Part shown: positions 2,772 to 61,312 of the stretch, in pieces | Layout: each line of letters starts with the position of its first letter | How positions within the stretch are numbered: position 1 is the first letter of the stretch | Source: Myxococcaceae bacterium | Lineage (GTDB): Bacteria > Myxococcota_A > Polyangia > Polyangiales > Ga0077539 | Assembly: GCA_004297725.1 (NCBI GenBank) | Contig: SCUS01000095.1 | Coordinates: 28,065 to 92,064 of the forward strand | Direction of reading: 5' to 3' | DNA: 64,000 bases | The notes under the pieces: model-generated | Database searches by the model: none | What the model was told of the DNA's origin: nothing | Seen by the model: only the letters and a program-made list of their open reading frames with translations | Program-made: the position numbers and the translations under genes

Positions 2772-2782
2772 CGCCCGCTCCC

Positions 2783-3883: not shown

Positions 3884-3964
3884 TCTCGAAGTGGCAGGGG
3901 CTACCACGTCGCGCGCTCCCCGGGCAATCCGCGCCGGGCGCTGGTAGAGCTTGTCCCCCTGCGC

Positions 3965-4279: not shown

Positions 4280-4322
4280 GCGGTTGCGTCGAGGGGTCTG
4301 ACAGTGCAAATAGCGCCCCTCG

Positions 4323-5927
<1,605 letters not shown>

Positions 5928-7761: not shown

Positions 7762-8036
7762 CAGCCCTCCTCCGAGTCGCCCAGCGACGCGAGCACCCCG
7801 AGGGCCACCGGGTGCAACGGAGGACGCGGCGTGATGGGAAGCTGCGGGGCCTTGCCCGTCGCCTTCGCCAGCACGCGGGCGCAGGCCACCACGCACTGCT
7901 TTCCCTGGCACCACCCGGTGCCGAAGCCCGTGTAGCGCTTCACCGACTCGATGTCCTGGTGGCCCGCCTCCAGCGCCTCCATCACCTCGTCGAGCGTGAC
8001 GTCCTCGCAGCGGCACAGCATCGCCTTCGCGGTCAT
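7761..8036 (-). CDS. small BFD-like [2Fe-2S]-binding protein
   Basis: 91 aa, MTAKAMLCRCEDVTLDEVMEALEAGHQDIESVKRYTGFGTGWCQGKQC. This is the CxC...CxxxxC spacing typical of BFD-like 2Fe-2S domains. It has ATGA overlaps with both neighbours (8033-8036 and 7761-7763). Confidence 0.7.
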   Translation of the reverse strand: MTAKAMLCRCEDVTLDEVMEALEAGHQDIESVKRYTGFGTGWCQGKQCVVACARVLAKATGKAPQLPITPRPPLHPVALGVLASLGDSEEG

Positions 8037-9349
8037 CGCCCCTCCCCTCGCAGGTCGCGCAGCGCCCGGGCGCCCACCGCCGCGCCGTCCCTCGCCCTCG
8101 CGTCGTGGTCGATTCTCCCCCAGCGCAGCGAGCCCGCCACGTACACGCCCTCGCGCGAGGTCGCCCCCTCCGCGTCGCTCTCCGGCACGAAGCACTGCCG
8201 CCCGTCGCTCCAGAGCACGCTCGCCCCGGCCTGCCCCGCCAGCTCGTAGGCCGCGCCCAGCTCCCCGTCGACCACCAGCGCGTCGCACTTCACGGTCCAC
8301 TCGCGGCCGCCCTCGCGCAGCGTCGCGCCCTTGACCGCGCGGCCGCCCAGCGCCTCGACCACCGCGGCGCCAGGGGAGTGCGTCACCCGCTCGCCGAGCG
8401 TCGCCGCGATGGAGCGGGCGAAGAGCCCGTCGCCCACCAGCGCCACGCGCTCACCGGCCAGCACGCCGTGGCAGAGCGCCAGCGCGAAGGCCCTCGCGGT
8501 GAACACCCCGGGCACGTCGCTCTGCGGGAAGACCCCCACGGACTCTCGCGCCCCGGTGGCGAACACCCTCACCCTCGCGCGCACCGTCACCCCCCTGCCC
8601 TCGTGGATCACCAGGGTCTCGTCGTCGTAGGTGGCGACCGCGCCCGAGCCGTAGCGCACCATCACCGCGGGGTCGCAGCCGGGGTACGCGCCGTCGTCCA
8701 ACGGGTCGTCGCGTCGCATCCCTCCGGGGCCTTCGCGCTCGTCGACGAGCATCACTCGGGCTCCGCCTCGGGCGAGGGCGTTGGCGCAGGCGACGCCGGA
8801 GGTGCCGGCGCCGACCACGAGGGCGTCGACGTCGAGGATCTCCGAGCGGGGGAAGGTGGCGATCGCGTCGGGGAGGGTGCCGAGCCCTGCCATGCGCCGC
8901 GCGAAGACCTGCATGGTGCGGTTGAGGGCGCCGCCGAACTTCACCAGCAGGTGGTGGTGGTCGAGGTGCCTGGGGAAGAACCAGTCGGTCACCCGCAGCA
9001 CGTCGATTCCCGCCGTGGGGAAGGCGTTCTGCGACTGCGCCACCATGCCTGCGCGGGCGGGCGTCTGGCAGGACATCACGTTGGGCACGCCGTCGACGCG
9101 CACGAGGCAGCCGTCGCAGTCGCCGCGGAGGCACATGGCGCCGCGGGGCCGGTGGTACTTCACGCTGCGCGCGAGGGTGAGCTGGCCCGCGGCGAGGAGC
9201 GACACCGCGAGGGGCTCACCCTCGACGGCGGCGACCGGGGCGCCGTCGTGCTCGACGGTGACGCGCCCGGAGGAGCCGAGGGCGGCGAGGCGTCGTGCGA
9301 GCGGAGAGCCTGGAGGGAGGTCGGTGGGAAGGATCCGTCGCGGCGCCAT
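8033..9349 (-). CDS. fused 2Fe-2S (SoxA-N/HcnA-like) + FAD/NAD(P)-binding oxidoreductase (HcnB/OoxA-like)
   Basis: Internal ATG at 9349. The N-terminus VTVEHDGAPV...SVKYHRPRGAMCLRGDCDGCLVRVDGVPNVMSCQT resembles the Fer2_4 domain. It is followed by DALVVGAGTSGVACANALARGG (GxGxxG). Confidence 0.75.
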   Translation of the reverse strand: MAPRRILPTDLPPGSPLARRLAALGSSGRVTVEHDGAPVAAVEGEPLAVSLLAAGQLTLARSVKYHRPRGAMCLRGDCDGCLVRVDGVPNVMSCQTPARAGMVAQSQNAFPTAGIDVLRVTDWFFPRHLDHHHLLVKFGGALNRTMQVFARRMAGLGTLPDAIATFPRSEILDVDALVVGAGTSGVACANALARGGARVMLVDEREGPGGMRRDDPLDDGAYPGCDPAVMVRYGSGAVATYDDETLVIHEGRGVTVRARVRVFATGARESVGVFPQSDVPGVFTARAFALALCHGVLAGERVALVGDGLFARSIAATLGERVTHSPGAAVVEALGGRAVKGATLREGGREWTVKCDALVVDGELGAAYELAGQAGASVLWSDGRQCFVPESDAEGATSREGVYVAGSLRWGRIDHDARARDGAAVGARALRDLRGEGR

Positions 9350-9405
9350 AGGGGTGAACGTGCTGCTCCGCGCGGGAGGATATACCTCAGCCGCGCGGCG
9401 CGACT

Positions 9406-10053
9406 CTAGGGTTCGTGCGGGAGGGGATGGATCGCGAAGCGCCGGGCGGCCTCGCAGCGTGGCGAGTCGAGCACGACGTGCACGGAGTCGGGGAGCCAGC
9501 CCATGCGCTGCAGGGCGCGGTGGGCGTCGGGCGATGGCAGGAAGAGGTCGAGGTGGTGGCCGTTGATGGCGCCGCCGCGGTCGACGGCGACGAAGCAGCC
9601 GTCGTGGGTCGATCCGTCGGGGAGCGGCATGCCGATGAGCTCCGGGAGCTCGACGGTGCTGCCGAGGGGGACGAAGCGCGGGTCGACGGCGAGGGAGCGG
9701 TAGGGGACGAGCGCGAAGCCCGCGACGCCGATGCCGAAGGGGTAGAGCGCGGGGTCGACCTCGATGTAGCAGGAGCGCCCCTCGCGCCGGGAGGACCAGT
9801 TGAAGAGCCTGCCGTCCCAGGAGCGGCCGGTGCCCTCCATGGCGAGGGCCTCGGCGAAGCGGCTGGTGCACCAGGTGAGCGTGCGGCCCTGCGGGTCGAG
9901 CACGCGGGCGGCCTGGCGGTCGTCGGGCCGGGGGGTCTCGTGGGCGATCCAGTAGCGGGTGAGCTGGAAGGCGCCGGGGACGGCGGTCTGCGCGCGCGCG
10001 ACGGCGGGCGCGAGGGAGAGCGCGAGCGCGGCGACGAGGAGGCGGGGGAGCAT
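9406..10053 (-). CDS. secreted 3D-domain (MltA/RlpA-like DPBB) protein
   Basis: Start at ATG 10053 gives MLPRLLVAALALSLAPAVARA (signal peptide). The C-terminal CFVAVDRGGAINGHHLDLFL is a 3D-domain hallmark. Confidence 0.7.
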   Translation of the reverse strand: MLPRLLVAALALSLAPAVARAQTAVPGAFQLTRYWIAHETPRPDDRQAARVLDPQGRTLTWCTSRFAEALAMEGTGRSWDGRLFNWSSRREGRSCYIEVDPALYPFGIGVAGFALVPYRSLAVDPRFVPLGSTVELPELIGMPLPDGSTHDGCFVAVDRGGAINGHHLDLFLPSPDAHRALQRMGWLPDSVHVVLDSPRCEAARRFAIHPLPHEP

Positions 10054-10779
10054 CGCGGCGGAGTGTATTCGAATTGGGCCGTGGGATGAGGGTCCGGGGA
10101 GCAACCGCCCACGCCGACGGTCACTGTCCTCGCCCGGAGGGGAGCGCCCGGCCAGGTCATCAGTCACCGCCCTCCGTCACGGGTCGTCAGGCTGGAGGGA
10201 GGGCGCGGGGAGCGACCAACTGTCGCCTCGCGGAGGAAGCGCGTCGCAGAGCTTCCGCCAGAGCAGACCTACGATCGCGGGCGCCTGCGGAAAGTCGACG
10301 CGATATCGCAGGTCACCCGGTCCTGCGCCGCCACCGCCACCCCGATCGCGACGCGGTGCCAGCGCGACAGCCCCTCGGCGCTCTTCATTGCAGCACGCTA
10401 CACCCGCGCCCGGGCGCCCGCTGGCGACCTCCCACCGGGTGGCCGTACCCACGTGGCGCCCGTCGACCGCAATCTCACCGCCGTAGGCGACGCTCCTGGC
10501 GTCGACGCCACGAAGCTACCCATCGAGCTCGCCGGAAGCTCCGCGGGACAGCTCAAGGGAGACCGCGGACTTCGTACACCGGGCGTCTCGTCAACCCGAG
10601 CCGATCCCTGTCAGCGGGGGTGCCACGCCGGACGCCCTTAGGAGCCTCAGGGCCGGTCGGCGGGCACGAACGCCAGCACCAGCGCCGCGTCCGCGAGGTC
10701 GCACGCGAAGTCGGCGCGTGGGGCGTCTGGTGATGTAGCGTTCCGACGGTATTTTCCGTCGGAGACGGGAGGCTGATCG

Positions 10780-11631
10780 ATGAGCGAGTTCCAGTACTAC
10801 GAGTTCGTCGCGGTCGACCGGCGGCTCACCGAGGCGGACCAGGACGCCCTGCGCCGCATCTCCTCTCGCGCCGAGATCACGGCCACGTCGCTGACCAACT
10901 CGTACAGCTATGGCGACTTCAAGGGCGACCCCGACGACCTGATGGACCGCTACTTCGACGCGATGGTCTACGTGACCAACTGGGGCACGCGCACCGTCAG
11001 GCTGCGCGTCCCGCGGGCGACGGCCGACCTCCCGGCGATGCGGCGCTACGCCGTCGATCGCGTGATCGACGTGCGCGCGACGAAGGCCCACGTGGTCGTG
11101 ACGCTCTCCGTCGATGAAGAGGAGGGCGGGGGCTGGGTGAGCGAGGACGGCGACGGGTGGATGCAGAAGCTCCTCGGGCTGCGCAAGGAGCTGATGGCCG
11201 GCGATCACCGGCCGCTGTACCTCGGTTGGCTCGCGGCCACCCTCTGGGGCGACCTGGACGAGGACGATCGCGAGCCGGCGGTTCCGCCGGGGCTGCGGCG
11301 GCTCACGAAGGCGCAGGCCCACCTCGCGGACTTCCTGGCCCTGGACGACGACCTCGTCGAGGCGGCCGCGCAGGCGAGCCGGGGCGGCGCGGCGGCGGCG
11401 ACGCCGACGAAGGCCGCGCTGGCGAAGTGGGTCGCCTCGCTCCCCGCGAAGCAGAAGGACGCGTGGCTGGTGGCCGCGGCGCTGGACGACGGCGCGAACG
11501 TCGGCACGACGCTGCTGCAGGCGTACCGGAAGGCGCAGCCGAAGGCCGCGGCCGCGGGCCCGGCGAAGGTGAAGCGGCGGACCGTCGCCGAGCTGTTCGC
11601 GGCGTCGGGCCGCGGCACGACGGAGGGTTGA
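10780..11631 (+). CDS. conserved hypothetical protein (MSEFQYYEF... family)
   Basis: Clean ATG ORF with GGAGG-like RBS (gacgggaggctgatcgATG), good GC3 bias and non-junk composition. I cannot assign a function. Confidence 0.6.
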   Translation: MSEFQYYEFVAVDRRLTEADQDALRRISSRAEITATSLTNSYSYGDFKGDPDDLMDRYFDAMVYVTNWGTRTVRLRVPRATADLPAMRRYAVDRVIDVRATKAHVVVTLSVDEEEGGGWVSEDGDGWMQKLLGLRKELMAGDHRPLYLGWLAATLWGDLDEDDREPAVPPGLRRLTKAQAHLADFLALDDDLVEAAAQASRGGAAAATPTKAALAKWVASLPAKQKDAWLVAAALDDGANVGTTLLQAYRKAQPKAAAAGPAKVKRRTVAELFAASGRGTTEG

Positions 11632-49473: not shown

Positions 49474-50196
49474 TTGTTAGCCACCACGCACGCCAGCACG
49501 CTCATCGGCCTCGACTCGCACCCGGTGCAGGTCGAGGTCGACATCGCCCGGGGACTGCCCGCCTTCGACCTCGTCGGGCTCGCGGAGGTGGCCGTCCGCG
49601 AGTCCCGCACCCGCGTCCGCGCCGCCATGGAGCAGGCGGGCTACCTCTTTCCGCTGCGGAGGGTGACGGTCAACCTCGCGCCCGCGGACGTGAAGAAGGC
49701 CGGGACGGGCTTCGACCTCGCCATCGCGATCGCCACACTCGCGGCCGCGGGGGACTGCCCCTCCGCGGGGCTCGATGGCTGGCTGATGCTCGGGGAGCTG
49801 TCCCTCACCGGCAGCGTGCGCCCGGTGCGGGGAATACTCCCCCAGGTACTCGCGGCGAGGGACCGGGGGATGCGGGGGGCGATCGTTCCGCTGGAGAACG
49901 GGGCCGAGGCGGCGGTGGTGGAGGGCATCGAGGTGCGCGGCGCGGAGACCCTCCGAGGGGTGTGCGAGTTTCTCTGCGGCCGGGAGGAACTCCCCCTCAT
50001 CGAGCGCACCCGGGTGGTGGACCTCGCCACCGGGGACGCGCTGGAGGTGCTCGACCTGCTGGACGTCCGAGGCCAGTCGCACGCCAAGCGAGCCCTGGAG
50101 ATCGCCGCGGCGGGAGGGCACAACGTGCTGGTGTTATGGCGGGAAACACACCCGTTGCGCACGGGCCCCCACCCAGGCGCGCGACCTCTTATCTGA
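49474..50196 (+). pseudogene. comM: comM/yifB (Mg-chelatase-like AAA+ competence protein), 5' fragment truncated at the Walker-A box by island insertion
   Basis: The N-terminal Lon-like domain is intact (HPVQVEVDIARGLPAFDLVGLAEVAVRESRTRV...VNLAPADVKKAGTGFDLAIAIA...DVRGQSHAKRALEIAAAGGHNVLV). At about 50,134 the expected GPPGxGKT is replaced by LWRETHPLRTGPHPGARPLI-stop. G+C falls to the right of this point. Confidence 0.75.
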
Positions 50197-50202
50197 CGAA
50201 GG

Positions 50203-50709
50203 CTACGGCGTGAACCGCCGGTATCGCGGGTCGAGGGTGAAGGGTCGGCCGGGCAACACCTTCACCTTCGCGAAGTCAGGGTGAAGCGGGTTCAGGAGGA
50301 TGTTGTACTCGTCGGGCACGACGACGGACGGAACCTTCAACGCGACTGAACGCACTGATCGCACCCACTCAACGCCGAGCTCAGCCAACGCCTCGGGTGC
50401 GGGGACGTCCCTCCAGTTGGCGGGCAGCGACGACCTGTCGAACGTCTCCACATCCACATCCGCAAGATCGGCGGGCGTGACGACGAGGTCGTCCGGTAGC
50501 AGCCCGGGGTCCGTATGCACCAGGAGCTCCAGAGCAGCCAGCGATCGCGTGCCGCTCGTATAGACGACCGGGACCCCTTTCTGGTTCCATCGCCCTCCGA
50601 CGATCTTCGCGCCGTAGCCCGAGTACGAGGTGCTCTCCCAGCGCTTCATACAGATCCGGAAAACTTCGGTCGAGCTCATGATGACATTTGGCTTAGCGCT
50701 CGATGCCAT
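50203..50709 (-). CDS. RES-domain toxin (NAD+-targeting RES/MbcT family)
   Basis: GAKIVGGRWNQKGVPVVYTSGTRSLAALELLVH...KVPSVVVPDEYNILLNP carries the R...E...S signature spacing. The start is ATG 50709 or 50679; the track ORF start at 50757 is probably too early. Confidence 0.75.
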   Translation of the reverse strand: MASSAKPNVIMSSTEVFRICMKRWESTSYSGYGAKIVGGRWNQKGVPVVYTSGTRSLAALELLVHTDPGLLPDDLVVTPADLADVDVETFDRSSLPANWRDVPAPEALAELGVEWVRSVRSVALKVPSVVVPDEYNILLNPLHPDFAKVKVLPGRPFTLDPRYRRFTP

Positions 50710-50862
50710 GTGGCGCAAACGCGTCGATGGTGGATTTCTTCTTGCTGGTCCCCACACTCACCCAGCCACACCCACATCACCCGCGCCCTAGGGATGGCGT
50801 GACCAAAAAGGTCGGGAACTGCTAAGACGCGAGTCGAGGAATCGCAAGGTGCCAGCGTGCAT

Positions 50863-50878
50863 ACTGATCGTGCGATCA
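50863..50878. promoter_or_regulatory. perfect inverted repeat ctgatcg-tg-cgatcag in the RES/XRE divergent intergenic region (candidate operator)
   Basis: Read directly from the sequence. It lies 54-69 nt upstream of the XRE gene's TTG start at 50932. Confidence 0.4.
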
Positions 50879-50886
50879 GATAACGC

Positions 50887-50900
50887 GTTGCCTCGGCAAC
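50887..50900. promoter_or_regulatory. inverted repeat gttgcc-tc-ggcaac; further GGCAAC/GTTGCC half-sites at 50908-50913 and 50931-50936
   Basis: Read directly. There are four copies of the hexamer within 50 nt, immediately upstream of or overlapping the XRE gene start. Confidence 0.4.
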
Positions 50901-50931
50901 AACTCCTGGCAACGCATGGAGCCTTGAGCCG

Positions 50932-51657
50932 TTGCCCGCCCTACGCTACGGACGGGCTGTGGACCTCTCTCCTCCCCTCGCACCTGTAGGTGAACGGATT
51001 GCAACCCTCCTTCAAGGTGCGGACAAGACTCCCGCGTGGCTGGCCGAAAAAACGGGACTTCAGCGCTCGACGGTGACCCGTGCCATCAATGGCAATCGTC
51101 AACCTTCGTCCGACACGCTTCAAGCCATTGCGACGGTACTCGGCCTGACCGTCCCTCAACTTGTTGCCGGAACAGATGCGGCGGGTCGGGTGAACGAGGT
51201 CGAACAACTTGTACCTCATCATCTCTACGACAACGCAGTTCACCAAATTATCGCCTACGAGTCCAAGGCGAACGAGTATCTCACCCGTATCCGCAACCTC
51301 GAAGAGACTCTTGAGCAAGAACGCGCTCGTCGACGCGTGGCACGTGGGGAGGCGGAGAAGAGTGAGCGAGAGGCTGACCAGGCACGCCTTGTTCGAGACG
51401 ACGCGCTGCGCAAGGCAAGACACTTTGAGCAGGACGCCATTCGTTACCGCAACGGCCTCGAAAAGGCCGTTAAGGACGTTGAACGTCTCAATCAGCAATT
51501 GAGAGAGCTCGGTGCGGCGGTCGAGGCGACCCGCCGGACAGGTCAGGTCGGGACAATCCTCGCGGGGGTTGCCGCTGCGGTCTCCATCGCGACCTATCTC
51601 GGAAACGAACCTCTGAACAACCATGCCGATGAAGTTGGCAAAGAGACTGACGGCTGA
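50932..51657 (+). CDS. XRE-family HTH protein with long coiled coil and C-terminal TM anchor
   Basis: The Cro/C1-type HTH reads GERIATLLQGADKTPAWLAEKTGLQRSTVTRAINGNRQPSSDTLQAIATVLGLTVPQL. The coiled coil reads LEETLEQERARRRVARGEAEKSEREADQARL... The TM segment is VGTILAGVAAAVSIATYL. The start is uncertain (TTG 50932 or GTG ~50956). Confidence 0.7.
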   Translation: MPALRYGRAVDLSPPLAPVGERIATLLQGADKTPAWLAEKTGLQRSTVTRAINGNRQPSSDTLQAIATVLGLTVPQLVAGTDAAGRVNEVEQLVPHHLYDNAVHQIIAYESKANEYLTRIRNLEETLEQERARRRVARGEAEKSEREADQARLVRDDALRKARHFEQDAIRYRNGLEKAVKDVERLNQQLRELGAAVEATRRTGQVGTILAGVAAAVSIATYLGNEPLNNHADEVGKETDG

Positions 51658-51707
51658 GAGATGTCCTCGACATTGTCAGTCTGTTATCGAGCAAAGGAGA
51701 CGAACAG

Positions 51708-52025
51708 ATGCCTCGCTATTCAGACCCTGTACATCCGGAAGTAGCCGCTCGCCTGTTTGGTCGCCGGCCGGGCAACTACATTGCCCACTTCGACGACGGC
51801 ACCGTATACAACGGTCGCCAGTCTGAGACGACCAACCGCATCCGGGCGGTCATGAACCGGCACCCGGGAGAAGTCGTTGCCGTTCAGTTCATGAACGACC
51901 ACAGCGACGACGAATGTCTCCGTGCCGCCCGAGAAGACCAGACGACCGAGGCCCTCCTTGACGACGGCTACGAGGTCAGGAACAAGATTCGGCCGTCCTG
52001 GCCCGGAAAGTGCGCCATCAAGTAG
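51708..52025 (+). CDS. small hypothetical protein, possible minimal GIY-YIG-like fold
   Basis: Strong RBS (aaaggaga, 7 nt before the ATG). NYIAHFDDGTVYNGRQSETTNRIRAVMNRH loosely fits GIY-x9-YxG...R...H. The family call is weak. Confidence 0.45.
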   Translation: MPRYSDPVHPEVAARLFGRRPGNYIAHFDDGTVYNGRQSETTNRIRAVMNRHPGEVVAVQFMNDHSDDECLRAAREDQTTEALLDDGYEVRNKIRPSWPGKCAIK

Positions 52026-52093
52026 AGCCCCAAAGGCCGTGGCTCTAGCGTCGTCTCCTGTCGCGCAGGGAAGACACCGGAAAGAATGCCTAC

Positions 52094-52954
52094 ATGATCT
52101 CACCTCAACGCATCGCTCGACAGTCCGGAAGGATCGTCGCCGGGCTCCTAGCAGGAGTCATCTCGTCGTGGAGTTACATCGAACCGCTGAGCGCGATGGT
52201 GCAATTGCCTGCCGGCTTCATTCGCTGGACGATTCCTGCGCTAGCGATCGCGTATGCCATTTGGCGAATGAGACCGCGGACCCATCTCGAACTTCGAGGA
52301 CCAAACAATCTCCGCGTGCATCTAAGCTTTGGCGACGTGTTTACACAAAAGAATACTGACACTGGCCTTGCGATTCCGACCGATGATTTCTTCCTCACAA
52401 AGAACAAGAAGTTCGTTACCCCAGGCATGTTGATATCACAACTCAAGCAAAAACGCTTCAACAACTCCGACGATTTCGACACAAAGGTTCTTGAGGCCAC
52501 GGAGCCGCTACGGGACCACTTCGATTTTGAGGCAAGAGATTTCCCAAAAGAACTTGAAGGAAGGACGCGTCAATGGCCACTGGGGTCCACCGCTGTCCTG
52601 CAAGTCGACGGAACCTATTACTTCTTCACCGCATCCTGCAAGATTGATCTTCAATCCAGTCCACCCTCAGGACGCGCCACACCTCCCGAGCTGTTTAAAG
52701 CACTTCTGGGGCTGTGGCAGGCGATCACCAAACATCCTAGCGGAAAGCCTGTCGTCGTCCCTCTGTTTGGCGCCGGTCAAACTGGTACCGGCCTACGTCC
52801 CACCGAAGCTCTCCATATCATGCTAGTCTCACTTGTCTGTGCTGCTCGAGCGACGCCGATCTCGGACGAGATTCGCATCGTCATCCACGATAGTCATCAG
52901 AAGCACATCGACCTCGACGACGACGTTCTGAAGGGGATCATGCATGCTGAATAG
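52094..52954 (+). CDS. 2-TM + macro-like domain protein (resembles the TM-Macro form of Thoeris ThsA / DUF6430)
   Basis: Two N-terminal hydrophobic helices are present (RIVAGLLAGVISSWSYI, IRWTIPALAIAYAIW). The segment GLAIPTDDFFLTKNKKFVTPGMLISQL resembles the NDCFD-type motif. GKPVVVPLFGAGQTGTGLRPTEALHIMLVSL resembles the macro-domain P-loop-like glycine-rich motif. The call is from memory and unverified. Confidence 0.55.
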   Translation: MISPQRIARQSGRIVAGLLAGVISSWSYIEPLSAMVQLPAGFIRWTIPALAIAYAIWRMRPRTHLELRGPNNLRVHLSFGDVFTQKNTDTGLAIPTDDFFLTKNKKFVTPGMLISQLKQKRFNNSDDFDTKVLEATEPLRDHFDFEARDFPKELEGRTRQWPLGSTAVLQVDGTYYFFTASCKIDLQSSPPSGRATPPELFKALLGLWQAITKHPSGKPVVVPLFGAGQTGTGLRPTEALHIMLVSLVCAARATPISDEIRIVIHDSHQKHIDLDDDVLKGIMHAE

Positions 52955-53083
52955 CCCGACTTCGACGGCCTAGGCACGGCGGCTGGATCCCCAGGGGTTC
53001 GTGAGGGCCCTGGGCACACCGCCACCGTGCCGTTCGTCGGGCCTTTCGATCCGTGCGCCCAGGACTGTCAACCTCGGGAATAG

Positions 53084-53566
53084 CGTGAACGGGATCGTTA
53101 TCACTACGAAGCGCCGCCAAAGGCCAGCGGAGAACATCGTCGGCGGGCTTCGCCCGCCGACAACGCGCTCATCCGGGCTCTCGCGGGGGTCGACGGTGAT
53201 GCCGCCATCGCAACCGCCCTCAACCAGCTCGGCGAGCGCACCGGACACGGGCAATCGTGGACCCGCGGCCGGGTCGTGGCCTACCGCCGAACGATCGGTC
53301 TCCCTGCGTACGAACCAGCGCGGCGCGACGGCACCGCCGTGACGGCGCGCGACGCGGCCGCAGCGCTCGGCGTCACGAGTCAGGTCGTGCGCGGCCTGAT
53401 CAGCCGCGTCATCCTGCCAGCCCATCAGGTGACGCCCGACGCGCCATGGCAGATCCGCGTGCAGGGCCTCTCCGCAGACAGCGTCCGCGAGGCGATTCGC
53501 ACGCGCCGCAGGAGCCCTCGTGCCTCCGCCGCGAGGACACCTGCGGCGCCCCGTCCCCGACAATAA
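53084..53566 (+). pseudogene. high-GC fragment with recombinase/transposase-accessory-like tail and HTH (excisionase-like) segment
   Basis: Manual extension of the 53276 frame back to the stop at 53081 gives ...ALIRALAGVDGDAAIATALNQLGERTGHGQSWTRGRVVAYRRTIGLPAY...TARDAAAALGVTSQVVRGLI. There is no plausible start or N-terminal catalytic domain. Confidence 0.3.
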
Positions 53567-53575
53567 CGTCAAGGA

Positions 53576-53893
53576 GTGGAGTACAATGGAACCGATGTCG
53601 CCGCTGCCCGCAAGTCGTGGCTCTTCTTCGGCAGCGACGACCACGCCCAGGCCGCGGCCAACCTCTTCTCGTTGGTGGCCTCCTGCAAGCTCCACGGGCT
53701 CGACCCCGAGAGCTACCTCGCCGAGGTCATCCGGGTGATGCCGTACTGGCCCCGCCAGCGGTACCTCGAGCTCGCCCCCAGGTACTGGGCCGAGACCCGT
53801 GGGCGCCTCGACTCCGGCGAGCTCGCGCGGCCCCTCGGGCACGTGACCGTCCCCGCGCCGCGCACGACGGAAGAGCAGACCGCGACGGACTGA
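53576..53893 (+). pseudogene. IS66-family transposase C-terminal fragment
   Basis: RKSWLFFGSDDHAQAAANLFSLVASCKLHGLDPESYLAEVIRVM matches the conserved IS66 Tnp C-terminal block (RKNWLF.GS...A...SL..T.KLNG.DP..YL). A TAA lies immediately upstream, so the DDE domain is missing. Confidence 0.65.
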
Positions 53894-54179
53894 CGGCTGG
53901 GGGTCCATGCGTCCGCGCATCGGGGTGACTCGGCGTCGTCCCGCCGAGAACGCGGGCTCGTGCAGCGCTTACAAAGGCCCAGGCGACGAGGGGCGAGAGG
54001 GCGACGAGGACGAGGGTGGTGGCGGTCACGCGGCGAAGCTGCCGACGCCGGCGCGGTCGCCCTCGGGCGCCGACGCCGAGAGCATCGGGTGCGACGGCAG
54101 CGGAGTGCTCAACTTCGTCGAGAGGAAGTGGGGGCGCCGACTACTGGGTTGTCACGCGCTCGCACGAAGGCGTTCGGAA

Positions 54180-54974
54180 TCAAGACACTTCGATCGTCAG
54201 CCCAACCGCGGAGTGGTCACTCAACTCCAGCCGACGGGGACTATGATCAATGTGACACGACGTCACCTGGGTTCTCAGCGAATCACTGACCATGCAATGG
54301 TCAAGCCTCAACCTGTGCCCATCCGGTCCGACCCAACTCACGTCTGCTCCCTGTGGATTCATCAAGCGATATGCATCACAATAACCAAGAGCGAGAAGAC
54401 CACGGTACAGCCCGGCATCCTCAAGTCCAGGAACAACAATGCCCAATCCAGGCTCTATAATATTGAGATCACCGCAAACAATACATTCAGGATCGGAACT
54501 GCTTACGAGATGCACGAGATCCTGCTGAAACTTCCGTCGGTATGCAAGTCTCTCGGGAGGAGTGTTATACCAACCAGTGGGGGCATAGACGCCCAAGATC
54601 GATACATTGCGCCCTCCTACATTCAACTTGCAACCCTGCAGTCGAGACGAATGAAACTCCTCTGTCTGCTCTAGCCGTTGTGGACTACGACCTCGGACGC
54701 AGAGCGCTGTCGTGAACTTGCCTCCTCGCGGGATGGCGGACAGAACATCGTAGCCAGCCCTTTCAAGCTGTTCGACAAGAAACCTACTCCCCTCGCCATG
54801 GGTGAGTTCCGTCAGCACGAGAACATCCACGCGCTGACTCTCCAGCCAGCGAAGCTGTTCAGCAGCTCGCACACGAGTTGGAGACTGCATATTCCACGCG
54901 AGAATATGCAGACGCTTCGCGCGCGCATCTTCGGCGACAGGCTTTGTACCGAAAAGTGATAGTTGTCGTTGCAT
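54180..54974 (-). CDS. endonuclease/exonuclease/phosphatase (EEP, ExoIII/DNase I-like) family protein
   Basis: Ordered EEP motifs are present: HILAWNMQS, VDVLVLTEL, VSILGVYAP, IVCGDLNI, DAYRLMNP, RLDHCMVS and LSDHSAVGL. An AGGA sits 8 nt before the ATG. The gene is low-GC. Confidence 0.8.
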   Translation of the reverse strand: MQRQLSLFGTKPVAEDARAKRLHILAWNMQSPTRVRAAEQLRWLESQRVDVLVLTELTHGEGSRFLVEQLERAGYDVLSAIPRGGKFTTALCVRGRSPQRLEQTEEFHSSRLQGCKLNVGGRNVSILGVYAPTGWYNTPPERLAYRRKFQQDLVHLVSSSDPECIVCGDLNIIEPGLGIVVPGLEDAGLYRGLLALGYCDAYRLMNPQGADVSWVGPDGHRLRLDHCMVSDSLRTQVTSCHIDHSPRRLELSDHSAVGLTIEVS

Positions 54975-54986
54975 GAGGTATCCTAC

Positions 54987-56024
54987 TTACCTTGCCTGTT
55001 GCAGATGCGCCAGCACTGCAGTGAAAACCCTCGCATACAGAGCCATCCGTCTCGCTATTACGTCCGCGATTCTCTCATTCGAAAGGTCATAACGATAGCG
55101 TCGCGTCGCCGCGCTGTCGGAGACGATGTGGAGATACGAAAAGCCAACGCGAGATTGCTGAGCAGCATCTGCCATGGGGCCAATCTCGGGGTCAACGAAA
55201 CGGGCAACCCTGCCTGCTTCGGCTACCCAGAGGCTACTCTCTTCAAGCACGGAACGAACCGTCTTGTGCGCGCCAAATATCGTACCAGATGCAATAAGAT
55301 CCGAAAAAACGTTGTCCCAAATTACGACGCGCCCATCGGACAGAAAACTACGATCTCCAGATGCGAGGGCGGCGTTCGGAACGTCATCACTCGCTAAAGA
55401 GCCGAGCTTTCCGACATATATTACTTCGACCGCGTTCTTCTCTGCAAGCAGCCTCACAAGTCTTCCAGCTATGTCACCCCATAGGGTGTGCTGGCAGCCA
55501 AGCAATATCTGATCGCCTGTCTCATTCAGAGGTCGCCAAAGAAACTCGCCTGTGGTTCGCCATCCAGATTGCAACCCCATACCAGGGAACATATCAACCT
55601 TGCCCACGACAAAATGTCGACCTACAGGAAACTCACTTCCCATAGATGCTCGGAGTGCGTCGATACAGTTGGTCTCGTCAGGCCACTCGACCAGCACCGG
55701 CACCGGCTTTCCAGTCATGGCGTAGTACGTTGAGAGAACAGACGCGAAGTGAAACAGGTAATCAAACCCAGGAAAACAGTTCACTATCGCAGTATTGTCG
55801 GTCCACGTCAGCGTTGGACGCTTTGAGTTAAAAAGCTTGCCTCGTTTCTCGTTTGCGGACAGACCGATGCTCCTGTCGTAGCTTCCTCGAACCACGATCT
55901 GTCCGGGCCTCTTTCGGCCTTCCGCTAGATCGGAGTGGAGCTTGAGCTCAAGATACCCCAGGAGGGATCTCCCCATGGAGTGCAACTCCGGCGACGTAGT
56001 GATAGGCAAGGGGTATCTCGTCAT
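54987..56024 (-). CDS. PNP/UDP-phosphorylase-fold (nucleosidase-like) protein with unknown N-terminal ~150 aa
   Basis: ILLGCQHTLWGDIAGRLVRLLAEKNAVEVIYVGKLGSL...SGDRSFL resembles the G-x-G...AA...I..G.aGgL...GD core. FVDPEIGPMADAAQQSRVGFSYLHIVSD resembles the vdMEsaA.a.va......l.iRgISD C-terminal motif of MTAN/PNP enzymes. The start overlaps the upstream stop as ATGA (56021-56024). Confidence 0.55.
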   Translation of the reverse strand: MTRYPLPITTSPELHSMGRSLLGYLELKLHSDLAEGRKRPGQIVVRGSYDRSIGLSANEKRGKLFNSKRPTLTWTDNTAIVNCFPGFDYLFHFASVLSTYYAMTGKPVPVLVEWPDETNCIDALRASMGSEFPVGRHFVVGKVDMFPGMGLQSGWRTTGEFLWRPLNETGDQILLGCQHTLWGDIAGRLVRLLAEKNAVEVIYVGKLGSLASDDVPNAALASGDRSFLSDGRVVIWDNVFSDLIASGTIFGAHKTVRSVLEESSLWVAEAGRVARFVDPEIGPMADAAQQSRVGFSYLHIVSDSAATRRYRYDLSNERIADVIARRMALYARVFTAVLAHLQQAR

Positions 56025-57097
56025 GGGTTAGGACGCTTGGGAAAGAATAGCCGATTCTCGCGCCGTGCCCGCATCTCAAGTTCTTCTAGCTCGCTCACGG
56101 CGTAGTCGAAGACAATATCACCTGATCGACAGGCGAGCGTGGGAACAGCGGCTCGCTTGCGAAGGTGACTGTAAAACGCCACAAGCCCTCTTTGGTCGAA
56201 CCGGAAAAAGGAAAAATATGGAAGATCGTCCATTCCGATGACCTCGATCGAGCAACTGCTGTAGCTGTTTGCTAAGCTTGCGAAGTCATTGATCGCTTCT
56301 GTAATCCGTGCTACGGCCTTGCTCTCCGTGAGGCCCTGCCAAGTGGCCATTCTGCGTCGGACTACTTTTTCAGCCGGATCGGGAAGGAGCACCTTGATCG
56401 ATGTGCCACCTCGCTCGCAGAAGTCGCGAATGCGAACGAAGTGATGTGATCGCCAGGTGGGTGATCCTATAAACATCATCTGCAAGGTCGATGCCGAGGA
56501 AAAGTAGTCATCCCAATCAATATCACCGCTTTGGAATGAACGATGTGCCAAAGCTGCGAATGGATCATGTACTATCGAGGCACGGAGCCAGCCCTCGCGC
56601 GGGCTTACTTTGAGAGCGTGCACAACACTAGCAGACACCTTGCCGCCAAGATCTCCTGCATCCTTCCAATGCTTACACATCTTGTCTGAGAGAACTTTCT
56701 TGCGGAACAGGTCCAGACGCCTTCTGCCCTCGTCGGTTTTCTCGGAGTGGCGGCTCGGGATTGATTCGGGGTCTGAGTGCACGAATGACAGCACTGGAAT
56801 ACCCTTTGACCGGGCATAGTCGTATTCCATTTCAGTATAGCCCACTCCACTTGCGTCTGTACTGCCGTAGCGACCAGCAAGAACGAGCACATAATAGTCG
56901 GAGTCATCAATAACACGTCGAATGAGTTCCCACTGACTCTCATTCGACGCGGGGAACAACTCCATTCCCGCTGGAAAGCAGCCTAACTCAAGCAGCGCAT
57001 GCATTACCTGCTGACGTGCCACCTCGAGGTCGGCAAACGTCGAGCTAACAAACACTTGATACCGCTTTTCGAGCATCGTCTTTTCTATACGCGACAT
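56021..57097 (-). CDS. DUF4062 (TIR-like) N-terminal domain protein with C-terminal domain resembling the DUF5919-type module of some XRE regulators
   Basis: YQVFVSSTFADLEVARQQVMHALLELGCFPAGMELFPASNESQWELIRRVIDDSDYYVLVLAGRYGS...GYTEMEYDYARSKGIPVLSF is the DUF4062 pattern as I recall it. The C-terminus shows IKVLLPDPAEKVV...IEVIGMDDLPYFSFFRFDQRGLVAFYSH. Confidence 0.65.
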   Translation of the reverse strand: MSRIEKTMLEKRYQVFVSSTFADLEVARQQVMHALLELGCFPAGMELFPASNESQWELIRRVIDDSDYYVLVLAGRYGSTDASGVGYTEMEYDYARSKGIPVLSFVHSDPESIPSRHSEKTDEGRRRLDLFRKKVLSDKMCKHWKDAGDLGGKVSASVVHALKVSPREGWLRASIVHDPFAALAHRSFQSGDIDWDDYFSSASTLQMMFIGSPTWRSHHFVRIRDFCERGGTSIKVLLPDPAEKVVRRRMATWQGLTESKAVARITEAINDFASLANSYSSCSIEVIGMDDLPYFSFFRFDQRGLVAFYSHLRKRAAVPTLACRSGDIVFDYAVSELEELEMRARRENRLFFPKRPNP

Positions 57098-59589: not shown

Positions 59590-60069
59590 TCATGCCGCCA
59601 GCGCGACCGGCTCAATGACGACGTCGTTCACTGCCAGTAGTCGTGAGAGCGCCGGGCTCCAGCGATCACTGAACGCCAGGGCCCGCAACTGGAGGACATG
59701 CTCGCCGGTGTCCTAGTGCCAACGCGCGCCGGGCCGCTTCATTCGCACTTCGACGAGACACTTGCATGTCGCCTCCACGTTGCCACTTCCGATGTGTAGA
59801 CCCGCGTCGCGGGCCTGCGCGTAGAGCATCCGCGAGGCGTGATGAGCCAGGTACGTCCGTGCCTCATGCAGCGGGCAGGACGTGTCCTTCGAGGGCGTCG
59901 GGACGTCCCACGACGCGATCTCCGCCGCGATCCGCTCGGCACCGTCGGGACGTTCGAGCAGCAGGGTCTTCCATCGAGTGAGCAACTTCGACCCCTCGGC
60001 CGCGCTCTCCGGGTGGCGGGCCTGGGCCGCGCGGCCGAGCTTCTCCGCCGCGTGCCAGTAGTCCACCAA
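59590..60069 (-). pseudogene. ISKra4-like transposase C-terminal fragment with an in-frame TAG
   Basis: VDYWHAAEKL...SRMLYAQARDAGLHIGSGNVEATCKCLVEVRMKRPGARW, then TAG (59713-59715), then in the same frame LQLRALAFSDRWSPAL... This matches the tail of ISKra4-type transposases as I recall them. No N-terminal part is present. Confidence 0.5.
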
Positions 60070-61312
60070 CTCTCGCCTGGCCCACGATGCACCGGCTGCG
60101 CGAACCCTTCACGCCCAGGCGGGTGATGGACACCGGTCCCGTCTCCAGACCGATGCCGAGACCGAGGGGCTTGGTATCCGGCATCTCGGCGTGGATGATG
60201 TCGAACGCGTCGCGCATCGCGGCCACGCACCAAAGGGCTTCGGACACGGTCTTCACGCGGTCGGTCGTCGCCGCGCCCTCGGCGAGCACGCCCTGCAGGC
60301 AGTCGCCGATGTACCGGACCTTCTTACCGCCGAAGTCCTGCAGCAAGTCGCGGAGTTCCTTGCGGATCACGTGCAGCGCGCGCACCGCGCTGCCGGCCTT
60401 GTCGGTCCCGGCCCGGTCGGCCACGAACTTCGTGAACCCGTCGACGTCCGCCATGATCGCGGCGGCCTCGATGCGCCGCGATGCGCCGGGTGAAAGCGCG
60501 TCGACGTCGAGGTCCGAGAGCGGCGGCGTCGGCCGGGTGAAGACGAAGTCCGAGATCGGGTTCTCCTTCACCTCGTCGCGCCACTGCTTGAGCATCTTGT
60601 CGAGGTCGAGCGTGAGGCCCGACTTCGTCACGCACTTGGAGATCTGGTCGGCCGTCAGGACCACGCTCGAGGGGGTCTTGGTCTCGAACTCCTTGCCCAG
60701 CGCGGCCCGGGCGACCGCGCCGAGATAGATGCCGTCGCTCGTCCCGCCGAGGAGCTTGGCCGCGTGGTTGGCAGGGTTCCCGAGAAAGAGGAGCTCGCGG
60801 TCGCCGCGCGTCCCGTTGCGCACCGCGAGCGCCACCCCGGACTCGATGCCGACGCGCACGCGGGCGTCTGCGAGCTCCTCATGAAGGTCGTCGGCCAGGG
60901 CGACGAGCTTCCGGAGGGAGTCCGCCACCGTTATGGCCACCGCAACGCGCTTGGCCTCGTCGTCGTAGGGCTTGTAGGTGATCAGGTGGGTGCGGTGGTT
61001 CTGCGCGTCGACGCGGTAGACGTCCGTGACGGAAAGAACCGCGGTGTGGAGCACGCGCTGGAAGATGTGGAGGTAGCGCAGGAGCCGCCTGTGCGAGCGC
61101 TCGGACTCCGTCTTGTCGGAGTCGAGGAGCTGGTCGGCGTTCACGATGTCGATGTAGGTGTGGACCCCGTCGACCCGGTACGCCTTCGTGAGCGGGATCG
61201 AGACCGTCGCTAGGTCGATCTCCCGGGTGAGGTCGACGACCTCGACGGAAGGAAGCGCCTTGAGTGCATCGCGGACTCGTGACTCACTGATTGAACGCTT
61301 CCACGCTGCCAT
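60070..61312 (-). pseudogene. tandem class III nucleotidyl cyclase-homology (CHD) protein, 3' end replaced by the IS fragment
   Basis: The second domain shows AAIMADVDGFTKFV (metal-binding Asp motif), VRYIGDCLQGVL and LGLGIGLETGPVSITRLG. The first domain is degenerate (HTYIDIVNADQLL, VRVGIESGVALAVRNG...FLGNPANHAAKL). After ...SRSRCIVG the track ORF (to 59864) reads wrong-frame through the transposase fragment, so the G..VN.AAR block of domain 2 is missing. Confidence 0.6.

What the first reader, a model, noticed from the sequence alone, without database searches (positions are those of the whole stretch)
52094..52954. Solitary 2TM-macro-like protein (ThsA type II-like effector) with no TIR ThsB partner next to it
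Seen in sequence: two N-terminal TM helices are followed by a ~200-aa domain. Its GLAIPTDDFF and VVVPLFGAGQTGTG motifs resemble the macro-type ThsA/DUF6430 module. The gene is the last of three co-directional island genes (XRE-coiled-coil-TM, 105-aa ORF, this gene) with 50- and 68-nt spacers.

Established knowledge: in type II Thoeris, a TM-Macro ThsA is activated by a TIR-made ADP-ribose derivative.

Inference:
- No canonical TIR gene is adjacent. The only NAD-linked candidates nearby are the RES toxin (50203-50709) and the TIR-like DUF4062 protein (56021-57097).
- RES enzymes of the MbcT type make ADP-ribose-1''-phosphate, a classical macro-domain ligand.
- An RES-to-macro signalling or detoxification link is therefore conceivable, and would be new.
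Basis: partly seen in the sequence, partly recalled or inferred. Interest (0 to 1): 0.65.

Follow-up and report, generated by a model that had tools for sequence, protein, structure and literature searches.

The report
Partnerless Thoeris-type membrane macro effector
The gene encodes a membrane-anchored ADP-ribose-type sensor of the anti-phage Thoeris ThsA family, but it belongs to a rare branch whose members never sit next to the TIR gene that normally makes the activating signal, and whose ligand pocket is altered, so what switches it on is unknown.

Summary
ORF 52094-52954 (+, 286 aa) is a full-length ThsA_Macro protein (PF20016, E 7e-29). It has an N-terminal two-helix membrane hairpin and a confidently modelled macro fold (pLDDT 91). 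Its best structural matches are the solved type II Thoeris ThsA macro domains.

No TIR gene is adjacent. The genome's only TIR genes belong to a separate Thoeris-like system on another contig.

The protein sits in a 100/100-supported clade, which I call the 'DDFF clade'. None of its 10 other members with readable context has a TIR, DUF4062 or RES neighbour, and their neighbours are unrelated to each other. In contrast, 9 of 9 ThsA_Macro genes outside the clade have a TIR gene (6) or a DUF4062 gene (3, cyanobacterial plasmids) directly adjacent.

The clade keeps the adenine and pyrophosphate contacts. It has replaced both side chains that hold the distal ribose (H/N to I/M/V; S/T to C).

The upstream XRE plus 105-aa genes are an independent conserved pair. 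The proposed RES-to-macro link has no support from co-occurrence. A link to the convergent DUF4062 cassette stays possible, because the GC content matches and cyanobacterial plasmids give a precedent, but it is unproven.

Verdict: a new variant of a known kind, of moderate interest.

The parts
52094..52954 (+). ThsA-family 2TM-Macro gene (286 aa), member of the partnerless 'DDFF' clade
   Evidence: PF20016 E 6.8e-29. PADLOC ThsA E 2e-29. AF2 pLDDT 91.4. Foldseek top hits are ThsA macro structures 8v6q/8v6r/8r66/8v6s, E about 1e-14. Clade support 100/100.
52124..52267 (+). Codons for the N-terminal membrane hairpin (residues 11-58); conserved W26 and E30
   Evidence: Kyte-Doolittle peaks at 14-30 and 40-57. 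AF2 helices 11-35 and 40-58. W26 and E30 are conserved across the family.
52283..52945 (+). Codons for the macro domain (residues 64-284). Retained: G80-D81, G226, G228, T230. Clade-specific: D97, L101, K106, I114, C182, G193
   Evidence: Column statistics for 9 clade members against 114 other family members. Mapped to BaThsA and EcThsA ligand contacts.
50932..51657 (+). XRE-HTH / coiled-coil / C-terminal TM regulator; first gene of an independent two-gene module
   Evidence: HTH_3 E 4e-8. 44% identical to the 244-aa HTH protein that precedes the 105-aa homologue in L005-L010, where no ThsA is present.
51708..52025 (+). 105-aa protein of unknown function; conserved partner of the XRE gene, not of ThsA
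   Evidence: Only homologue is P0005, 61% identical. In the 6 places shown (of 17 contigs carrying it) it follows the XRE homologue in serine-recombinase elements and is followed by a convergent WYL gene. No Pfam, PADLOC or NCBIfam hit.
52960..54160 (.). High-GC insertion-sequence debris (IS66 C-terminal fragment at 53576-53893) that separates ThsA from the convergent cassette
   Evidence: GC rises from about 0.55 to 0.66-0.78 and falls again at about 54150. DDE_Tnp_IS66_C E 1.7e-10.
54180..57097 (-). Convergent three-gene cassette: DUF4062/NIR protein (56021-57097), 345-aa nucleoside-enzyme-like protein (54987-56024), EEP nuclease/phosphatase (54180-54974). Possible but unproven partner
   Evidence: PF13271 E 3e-27 and PF03372 E 7e-14. 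GC 0.529-0.542, the same as ThsA at 0.539 and unlike XRE, 105-aa and RES at 0.595-0.633.
50203..50709 (-). RES-domain toxin gene at the island edge, with no Xre/DUF2384 antitoxin upstream; not linked to ThsA by any comparative evidence
   Evidence: PF08808 E 7e-28. NF049844 162 bits. The 78-aa upstream ORF has no NCBIfam hit.
49474..50196 (+). 5' fragment of comM: left junction of the island that carries all of the above
   Evidence: ChlI E 1e-42, and only positions 1-27 of 207 of Mg_chelatase. The comM 3' half lies at the end of contig C159. GC drops from here to the end of contig C135.

Best explanation
The gene encodes a stand-alone member of the ThsA (2TM-Macro) effector family. It was acquired horizontally as cargo of a large island inserted in comM.

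Inferred mechanism, by analogy with solved type II Thoeris ThsA proteins:
1. The cytoplasmic macro domain binds an ADP-ribose-containing small molecule.
2. Ligand binding drives higher-order oligomerisation.
3. Clustering of the two-helix membrane hairpins damages the membrane or arrests growth, which stops phage spread.

The difference from type II Thoeris is the input. This protein belongs to an old, rare, well-supported clade whose members are kept intact by selection but are never encoded next to a TIR (ThsB) gene or any other conserved partner. The two side chains that hold the distal ribose, the part next to the signal's head group, have been replaced. So the activating ligand is probably not His-ADPR made by a dedicated neighbour. 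It is more likely a different ADP-ribose derivative supplied from elsewhere: an unlinked host enzyme, another NAD-cleaving defence system, or the phage.

Shown here: family membership, fold, membrane hairpin, clade, absence of a partner across the clade, and the pocket substitutions. Inferred: ligand-induced oligomerisation, membrane action, defence role, and the nature of the ligand.
For: - Family and fold: PF20016 over the full profile; PADLOC ThsA models; AF2 pLDDT 91.4, pTM 0.87; Foldseek top 8 hits are all ThsA macro chains, E 2e-14 to 6e-13, TM-score (target) 0.79-0.85, followed by generic macro domains.
- Clade: an ML tree of 123 family members places the window protein with 8 others at 100/100 support on a branch of length 0.74.
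- Context: 10 further clade members (P0002, P0006, P0154, P0007, P0008, P0010, P0012, P0013, P0011, and the G401 chromosome copy) have no TIR, DUF4062 or RES gene next to them. Their neighbours share no homology with each other or with anything near the window's gene.
- Complete chromosome G401: the nearest of 16 TIR_2 genes is 574 kb away.
- Controls outside the clade: 9 of 9 have a TIR or DUF4062 gene directly adjacent. Fisher's exact test, 9/9 against 0/10, p = 1.1e-5.
- Selection: pN 0.22-0.45 against saturated pS of about 0.8 between clade members.
- Pocket: D81, G226, G228 and T230 are retained. H/N114 is I/M/V in 9 of 9, S/T182 is C in 9 of 9, N97 is D, D101 is L/Y/I, and K106 is fixed. 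Positions mapped to BaThsA D100/N133/S194 and EcThsA D83/N114/S175/D100.
- Mechanism precedent: Shi et al. 2024 (PMC11204291) and Sabonis et al. (10.1101/2024.01.03.573942).
Against: - Most clade contexts come from short metagenome contigs (1-17 kb), so a partner a few kb away cannot be excluded for several of them.
- One clade member (P0006) is followed by a SIR2_2 gene, and one (P0013) has a divergent 174-aa gene with a TIR-like N-terminal strand but no profile hit.
- In the window itself the DNA just downstream was rewritten by insertion-sequence debris. A DUF4062 (TIR-like) cassette with identical GC content lies tail-to-tail beyond it.
- Pfam TIR models could miss very divergent ThsB proteins.
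- No expression or functional data exist.
- A recent study reports a type II Thoeris that arrests growth without membrane depolarisation (10.64898/2026.01.22.701046), so the output step is uncertain even for canonical ThsA.
Confidence: 0.55

Rival explanations
1. The ThsA gene is wired to the convergent DUF4062 cassette (54180-57097). The TIR-like DUF4062/NIR enzyme, perhaps with the nucleoside enzyme and the EEP phosphatase, would make the ADP-ribose-derived ligand from NAD+, and the macro domain would sense it. This would be a Thoeris-like system with a NIR-type domain in place of TIR.
For: - Three cyanobacterial plasmids (Nostoc TCL26-01, N. edaphicum, Calothrix NIES-4105) carry ThsA_Macro directly beside a conserved protein of about 480 aa with an N-terminal DUF4062 domain. 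Two pairs are convergent with 38-48 nt between stop codons, the same orientation as in the window.
- ThsA (GC 0.539) matches the cassette genes (0.529-0.542) and not the co-directional XRE/105-aa genes (0.595-0.613). Only insertion-sequence debris separates the two tails.
- DUF4062 is a TIR-like NADase (10.64898/2026.05.01.722283; 10.64898/2026.09.04.749371).
Against: - None of the 10 other clade members has a DUF4062 neighbour.
- The window's DUF4062 protein shares nothing beyond the domain with the cyanobacterial partners. Its closest plasmid relatives are stand-alone genes.
- In 401 genomes of the phylum, 12 carry DUF4062 relatives and 3 carry ThsA-like genes. Only the window's own genome has both.
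- DUF4062 has so far been shown only as an NAD-depleting effector, not as a signal maker.
- An earlier agent reported that the cassette recurs on its own (e1-5007578; not re-tested here).
Confidence: 0.2
2. The ThsA is activated in trans by the TIR proteins of the genome's unlinked Thoeris-like system on contig C92. It would be a second effector listening to their signal.
For: The genome has a 388-aa x-TIR_2 protein, a 175-aa ThsB_TIR protein (PF08937, E 1e-18; PADLOC ThsB) and a TIR_2-SLOG protein at C92:7482-11370. G401 also has 16 TIR_2 genes elsewhere. According to Yirmiya et al., TIR clusters are shared between effector types.
Against: - The C92 TIR genes sit beside their own SLOG effector. 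SLOG effectors use cyclic ADPR isomers, which ThsA macro domains do not bind (PMC11204291).
- There is no linkage.
- tblastn with two type II ThsBs finds nothing in the genome at E below 0.01.
- The changed pocket argues against the canonical ligand.
Confidence: 0.1
3. It is an orphan relic of an ordinary type II Thoeris whose ThsB was lost to insertion-sequence activity. It is now functionless and on its way to decay.
For: Insertion-sequence debris starts within about 10-30 nt of the stop codon. The island is full of IS fragments and broken genes, such as PycC cut by an ISKra4-like fragment.
Against: - The gene is full length and every family-invariant residue is intact.
- Its closest relative, P0002, has a convergent unrelated gene 70 nt downstream and no ThsB.
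- The whole clade lacks ThsB yet is under purifying selection.
Confidence: 0.1
4. One reading: the neighbouring RES toxin makes ADP-ribose-1''-phosphate, and the macro domain senses or detoxifies it.
For: An apparently intact RES toxin without a recognisable antitoxin lies 1.4 kb away. A clade-specific invariant Lys106 in a ligand loop could in principle meet an extra phosphate (inference only).
Against: - No other clade member has a RES gene nearby.
- RES has a different GC content (0.633 against 0.539), lies on the other side of the unrelated XRE/105-aa module, and is transcribed away from ThsA.
- ThsA macro domains lack the MacroD catalytic Asp.
Confidence: 0.03

Closest known systems
Type II Thoeris effector ThsA (2TM-Macro): B. 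amyloliquefaciens Y2 ThsA (PDB 8R66), E. coli ThsA (8V6Q/8V6R), PcThsA (8V6S)
   Same: Same Pfam family (PF20016), same length, same two-helix N-terminal hairpin with the conserved W..xE motif. Same macro fold including the ThsA-specific insertions (TM-score 0.84-0.85). The adenine-binding Asp and the pyrophosphate loop are retained.
   Different: No ThsB/TIR gene beside it, a state shared by the whole clade. The distal-ribose contacts are replaced (EcThsA N114/BaThsA N133 by I/M/V; S175/S194 by Cys). The loop-stabilising N96 and D100 are replaced by D and L, and a Lys is fixed at position 106. Only about 20% identical to the solved proteins.
ThsA_Macro / DUF4062-protein gene pairs on cyanobacterial plasmids (NZ_CP040304.1, NZ_CP054695.1, AP018294.1). 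Found here; I found no mention of them in the DUF4062 preprints or in Yirmiya et al. 2025
   Same: A ThsA_Macro gene lies tail-to-tail with a gene that has a DUF4062 (TIR-like NADase) domain, as in the window.
   Different: There the DUF4062 gene is the immediate neighbour and has a conserved C-terminal domain of about 300 aa, and the ThsA is outside the DDFF clade. Here the DUF4062 gene heads a three-gene operon, belongs to another subfamily, and is separated from ThsA by IS debris.
CBASS/Pycsar 2TM effectors (nucleotide-sensor domain fused to a membrane hairpin)
   Same: Same logic: a small-molecule sensor domain, ligand-induced oligomerisation, and membrane-helix clustering.
   Different: Different sensor fold and ligand class. 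Those effectors are always encoded beside their cyclase.

Membership tests
ThsA_Macro protein family (PF20016) | Profile match above the curated cut-off over the whole macro domain | tested here: met
   101.3 bits against a cut-off of 25; profile positions 1-183 of 183.
ThsA_Macro protein family (PF20016) | N-terminal two-helix transmembrane hairpin | tested here: met
   Hydropathy peaks at 14-30 and 40-57. AF2 helices 11-35 and 40-58. No dedicated TM predictor was available.
ThsA_Macro protein family (PF20016) | Macro fold closest to solved ThsA macro domains | tested here: met
   Foldseek ranks 1-8 are ThsA chains, E 2e-14 to 6e-13. Generic macro domains follow from E 5e-7.
ThsA_Macro protein family (PF20016) | Adenine-binding Asp (GD motif) and Gly-rich pyrophosphate loop | tested here: met
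   G80-D81, G226, G228 and T230 are conserved.
ThsA_Macro protein family (PF20016) | Distal-ribose contacts (EcThsA N114 and S175; BaThsA N133 and S194) | tested here: not met
   I114 and C182. The whole clade has I/M/V and C, against H/Q and T/S/A in 114 other members. Mapping is by sequence alignment only.
Type II Thoeris system (ThsA 2TM-Macro plus ThsB TIR) | A ThsB/TIR gene encoded next to ThsA | tested here: not met
   No PF08937 or PF13676 match on contig C135. No PADLOC ThsB hit among 8 island proteins. Controls outside the clade show the TIR where expected.
Type II Thoeris system (ThsA 2TM-Macro plus ThsB TIR) | Activation by His-ADPR (or IAD) and ligand-induced oligomerisation | not testable with these tools
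   Needs binding and oligomerisation assays.
DUF4062/NIR defence systems (Swarozyc, Evangelion, Vulcan, Vesta), considered for the neighbouring cassette as a possible partner | DUF4062 domain above the Pfam cut-off in the neighbouring gene | tested here: met
   94.9 bits against a cut-off of 24.7.
DUF4062/NIR defence systems (Swarozyc, Evangelion, Vulcan, Vesta), considered for the neighbouring cassette as a possible partner | Conserved linkage between this ThsA clade and DUF4062 genes | tested here: not met
   0 of 10 other clade contexts. No overlap of the two gene families in 401 genomes of the phylum apart from the window's own genome.
RES-Xre toxin-antitoxin pair (considered as partner) | RES toxin with an upstream Xre/DUF2384 antitoxin; linkage to macro genes | tested here: not met
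   The RES toxin is present. No antitoxin ORF was recognised. No RES gene lies near any other clade member.

The most novel reading that the evidence does not exclude
The DDFF clade could be a one-gene, sensor-less immune module. Its remodelled macro pocket would listen for an ADP-ribose derivative that no dedicated partner makes. The ligand could come from phage enzymes or from any NAD-cleaving defence system in the same cell. In this island the candidates are the convergent DUF4062-nucleosidase-EEP cassette, which has the same GC content, or the RES toxin. That would make ThsA-type effectors shared 'second-line executioners' and would extend Thoeris-like signalling beyond TIR enzymes. The ThsA/DUF4062 pairs on cyanobacterial plasmids point the same way.
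Probability: 0.25. Interest if true: 0.8.

Novelty: new variant of a known kind. Interest (0 to 1): 0.55.

Why it matters
Thoeris is understood as a sensor-plus-effector pair. A TIR protein makes a nucleotide signal, and ThsA executes the response.

A lineage of ThsA effectors that is intact, under selection and horizontally mobile, yet never has a sensor gene, raises a question. Either bacterial immune effectors can be triggered by signals made elsewhere (cross-talk between defence systems, or direct sensing of phage-made ADP-ribose compounds), or an unrecognised signal-making enzyme exists.

The fixed substitutions at the distal-ribose contacts give a concrete handle. Swapping 4-5 residues should convert ligand specificity.

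The side finding that ThsA_Macro pairs with DUF4062/NIR genes on cyanobacterial plasmids suggests that this newly described NADase family may also make signals. The authors of the NIR preprint only speculated about that.

Tried and rejected
1. Treating XRE, 105-aa and ThsA as one operon. Rejected: the first two recur as a translationally coupled pair without ThsA, and they differ in GC content from ThsA.
2. Looking for a shared partner among neighbours of clade members. All-against-all BLASTP and tblastn against the window's genome found no shared family and nothing near ThsA.
4. The word-index protein search found only 2-3 relatives.
5. A hand-made degenerate DNA pattern found 2 places in genome contigs and 3 in metagenome contigs. 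Only G401 and one 1.4-kb contig were new.
6. Promoter and terminator scans of 50100-54300 found nothing, so transcription units are unresolved.
7. dN/dS could not be computed because synonymous sites are saturated. Only pN well below pS can be stated.
8. The 174-aa neighbour of P0013 looks TIR-like by eye but has no Pfam or PADLOC hit. Left open.
9. The C-terminal domain of the cyanobacterial DUF4062 partners also occurs on a Deinococcus TIR protein, but that gene is not next to a macro gene. So this does not prove that DUF4062 and TIR are equivalent.
Full report
**1. What is there**

The window is high-GC DNA (about 73%). From about 50,200 onward the GC content falls to 53-69%. The drop starts exactly where a comM gene is cut after its ChlI domain. 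The missing 3' half of comM lies at the end of another contig, C159. The low GC continues to the end of the window's contig, C135. So the island is at least 70 kb.

ORF 52094-52954 (+, 286 aa) lies about 2 kb inside the island's left end. It matches Pfam ThsA_Macro over the entire profile (E 6.8e-29). It matches PADLOC ThsA macro models over almost its whole length. Hydropathy shows two N-terminal segments, at 14-30 and 40-57, bracketed by arginines.

An AlphaFold2 model built on 40 homologues is confident (pLDDT 91.4, pTM 0.87). It shows helices 11-35 and 40-58 followed by an alpha/beta/alpha domain. Foldseek ranks the four solved ThsA macro structures first (8v6q/8v6r EcThsA, 8r66 BaThsA, 8v6s PcThsA), with E 2e-14 to 6e-13 and TM-score 0.79-0.85 on the target. 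Generic macro domains such as macroH2A, PARP14 and OiMacroD follow.

**2. Is a ThsB hidden nearby?**

- Eight island proteins were scanned against PADLOC, and none hits a ThsB model.
- Six-frame whole-genome searches with ThsB_TIR (PF08937) and TIR_2 (PF13676) find TIR genes only on contig C92, at 7482-11370.
- Those genes encode a 388-aa x-TIR_2 protein, a 175-aa ThsB_TIR protein and a 699-aa TIR_2-SLOG protein. They form a separate Thoeris-like system in another lower-GC island, next to GmrSD and RhuM genes.
- PF20016 occurs only once in the genome.

So no conventional ThsB lies just beyond the window.

**3. The upstream genes are not partners**

The 105-aa protein has one homologue family (61% identity). 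In the 6 places shown (of 17 contigs that carry it) this homologue directly follows a 244-aa HTH protein. That protein is 44% identical to the window's XRE/coiled-coil/TM protein. The pair sits in serine-recombinase mobile elements and is followed by a convergent WYL gene, with no ThsA. XRE plus 105-aa is therefore an independent two-gene module. Its GC content (0.595 and 0.613) also differs from that of ThsA (0.539).

**4. The clade**

An exhaustive HMMER search of 1.84 billion representative proteins gives 489 relatives. The nearest are 48% and then 37% identical. A maximum-likelihood tree of 123 full-length members puts the window protein with eight others in a clade with 100/100 support and a stem length of 0.74. 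I call it the DDFF clade after its A-x-x-D-D-[FL]-F-[LY]-T motif. The rest of the family has V-N-E-[FY]-F-D-S at that place.

P0011 and a copy in a complete Thermoanaerobaculaceae MAG chromosome (G401) carry the same signature residues. They were assigned by motif and were not included in the tree. The clade is rare. It accounts for about a dozen 50%-identity clusters. Only 3 of 401 genomes of the window's phylum have any match, and a clade-specific DNA pattern finds only 5 places in two large collections. Coding GC across members ranges from 38% to 66%.

**5. Genomic context across the clade**

| Member | Neighbours |
|---|---|
| P0002 | Three Imm11 genes and an AHH toxin upstream; a convergent patatin-like gene downstream |
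| P0006 | A SIR2_2 gene downstream |
| P0154 | A 106-aa ORF unrelated to the window's 105-aa protein |
| P0007 | Three uncharacterised genes upstream; HD_assoc fragments downstream |
| P0008 | A protein of more than 1040 aa with no family hit; ABC transporter genes |
| P0010 | DnaE2-like polymerase and an HTH-MLTR regulator |
| P0012 | A GNAT acetyltransferase |
| P0013 | A divergent 174-aa protein with no profile hit |
| P0011 | A convergent gene |
| G401 copy | A low-GC patch with unrelated genes within about 6-10 kb on either side; nearest of 16 TIR_2 genes 574 kb away |

None has a TIR, DUF4062 or RES neighbour. The neighbours share no homology with each other or with anything near the window's gene.

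Nine ThsA_Macro genes outside the clade were examined in the same ways, and all have a partner directly adjacent:

- ThsB_TIR or TIR: P0015, P0023, and plasmids of Serratia, Enterococcus, Brucella sp. and B. thuringiensis.
- A DUF4062-domain protein of about 480 aa: three cyanobacterial plasmids.

Nine of nine against zero of ten gives Fisher p = 1.1e-5. Between clade members, synonymous sites are saturated (pS about 0.8) while pN is 0.22-0.45. All family-invariant residues are intact. The proteins have therefore been maintained by selection without an adjacent sensor gene.

**6. The pocket**

I mapped the ligand contacts published for BaThsA (D100, N133, Q135, S194, R240, Y277) and EcThsA (D83, L113, N114, S175, S217, G218, T220, H259, K262, plus the structural N96 and D100). 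The mapping went through the HMMER alignment to 8R66 and the family alignment.

| Role | Window residue(s) | In the DDFF clade | In 114 other family members |
|---|---|---|---|
| Adenine N6 contact | G80-D81 | Retained | Retained |
| Pyrophosphate loop | G226, G228, T230 | Retained (T230 is T or S) | Gly residues retained; position 230 mostly S or A |
| Distal-ribose contact 1 | I114 | I/M/V in 9 of 9 | H in 88, Q in 18 |
| Distal-ribose contact 2 | C182 | C in 9 of 9 | T, S or A in 97, C in 12 |
| Equivalent of EcThsA N96 | D97 | D in 9 of 9 | N in 89 |
| Equivalent of EcThsA D100 | L101 | L/Y/I in 9 of 9 | D in 105 |
| Ligand loop | K106 | K in 9 of 9 | Mostly D or E |
| Position 193 (role not mapped) | G193 | G in 9 of 9 | A in 82 |

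My inference is that the ADP part of the ligand is recognised as usual, and the site for the distal ribose and head group has been rebuilt. Without coordinates this remains a sequence-level inference.

**7. How it probably works**

These steps are established for canonical ThsA. The macro domain binds ADPR weakly and IAD or His-ADPR strongly. Binding induces higher-order oligomers, which are proposed to cluster the TM hairpins (PMC11204291; Sabonis et al.). One E. coli system arrests growth without depolarisation.

The hairpin and the dimer-forming macro scaffold are conserved here, so I infer the same output. The input is the open question. My best reading (0.55) is a stand-alone effector with a non-canonical ADP-ribose-type ligand supplied from outside a dedicated operon.

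**8. The DUF4062 question**

DUF4062 (also named NIR) was described in 2026 as a TIR-like NADase effector, in the Swarozyc, Evangelion, Vulcan and Vesta systems. None of those preprints mentions macro or ThsA partners, and neither does Yirmiya et al. 2025.

The cyanobacterial ThsA/DUF4062 pairs found here show that such a pairing exists. The partners are 47-68% identical to each other. They occur in convergent and co-directional orientations. In Calothrix the DUF4062 match is above the Pfam cut-off.

In the window the DUF4062-345aa-EEP operon is convergent to ThsA and has the same GC content (0.53-0.54). Only 1.2 kb of high-GC IS debris separates it from ThsA. That keeps a functional link alive, at 0.2.

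Against the link:
- No other clade member has a DUF4062 neighbour.
- The window's DUF4062 protein is from a different subfamily.
- Its closest plasmid relatives stand alone.
- Within 401 genomes of the phylum, the two gene families co-occur only in this genome.

Homologues of the 345-aa protein on Streptomyces plasmids sit in 7-deazaguanine (QueD/QueE/FolE), thymidylate kinase and NUDIX clusters, not beside ThsA.

**9. The RES idea**

The RES gene is intact by profile and lacks a recognisable antitoxin. It has a different GC content (0.633). It lies beyond the unrelated XRE module and has no counterpart near any clade member. I give this idea 0.03.

**10. Verdict**

The gene is a new variant of a known kind: a partnerless branch of the ThsA effector family with an altered pocket.

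An earlier agent of this scan reported a 'solo clade' of ThsA in another genome (e1-1247383). I could not test whether it is the same clade, so I treat it as an agreeing lead and not as evidence.

Noticed in passing
L055 (NZ_CP040304.1) 2414-4766; L056 (NZ_CP054695.1) 2399-4959; L059 (AP018294.1) 2995-5349: Three cyanobacterial plasmids carry a ThsA_Macro gene directly beside a conserved protein of about 480 aa. Its N-terminus is a DUF4062/NIR domain (the PADLOC PDC-S60 N-terminus matches at E 1e-42). This is a Thoeris-like pair with DUF4062 in place of TIR, and I found no mention of it in the papers I could search.
   Followed up: partly
own genome, contig C92:7482-11370 (locus L021): A separate Thoeris-like system: a 388-aa x-TIR_2 protein, a 175-aa ThsB_TIR protein and a 699-aa TIR_2 plus SLOG (LD_cluster2) effector. 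It lies in a lower-GC island next to GmrSD, RhuM and HNH genes.
   Followed up: partly
window 50932-52025; L005-L010: The XRE/coiled-coil/TM regulator and the 105-aa protein form a conserved, translationally coupled pair. They also occur in serine-recombinase/DUF2924/HTH_17 mobile elements. Function unknown.
   Followed up: partly
window 49474-50196; own genome contig C159, near 20990 (minus strand): The missing 3' half of the interrupted comM gene, starting at the Walker A box, lies at the end of contig C159. The comM island therefore runs from C135:78.2 kb past the end of that contig, at least 70 kb.
   Followed up: partly
window 59864-61312 (-): The 'tandem cyclase' ORF is a Pycsar cyclase, PycC (PADLOC E 2.8e-143 over residues 3-413). 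Its 3' end runs into an ISKra4-like transposase fragment, and no effector gene follows.
   Followed up: no
window 54987-56024 (-); L063, L064: The 345-aa middle gene of the DUF4062 cassette has 38-40% identical homologues on Streptomyces plasmids. There it sits inside clusters with QueD, QueE, FolE, thymidylate kinase, a methyltransferase and NUDIX genes (7-deazaguanine-type nucleotide chemistry).
   Followed up: partly
L011 73-2327: One DDFF-clade ThsA (P0006) is followed 57 nt downstream by a SIR2_2 gene that resembles the SIR2 part of type I ThsA. This could be a two-effector or SIR2-to-macro arrangement, but the contig is too short to tell.
   Followed up: no
window 50203-50930: The RES toxin gene is intact by profile (NF049844, 162 bits), but there is no Xre/DUF2384 antitoxin ORF in the roughly 220 nt upstream.
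   Followed up: partly
L065 (NZ_CP026517.1) 2419-4271: A Deinococcus plasmid TIR_2 protein carries the same C-terminal domain as the cyanobacterial DUF4062 partners of ThsA. It is followed by a convergent 166-aa protein with no family hit. The domain looks like a modular sensor shared between TIR and DUF4062 enzymes.
   Followed up: no
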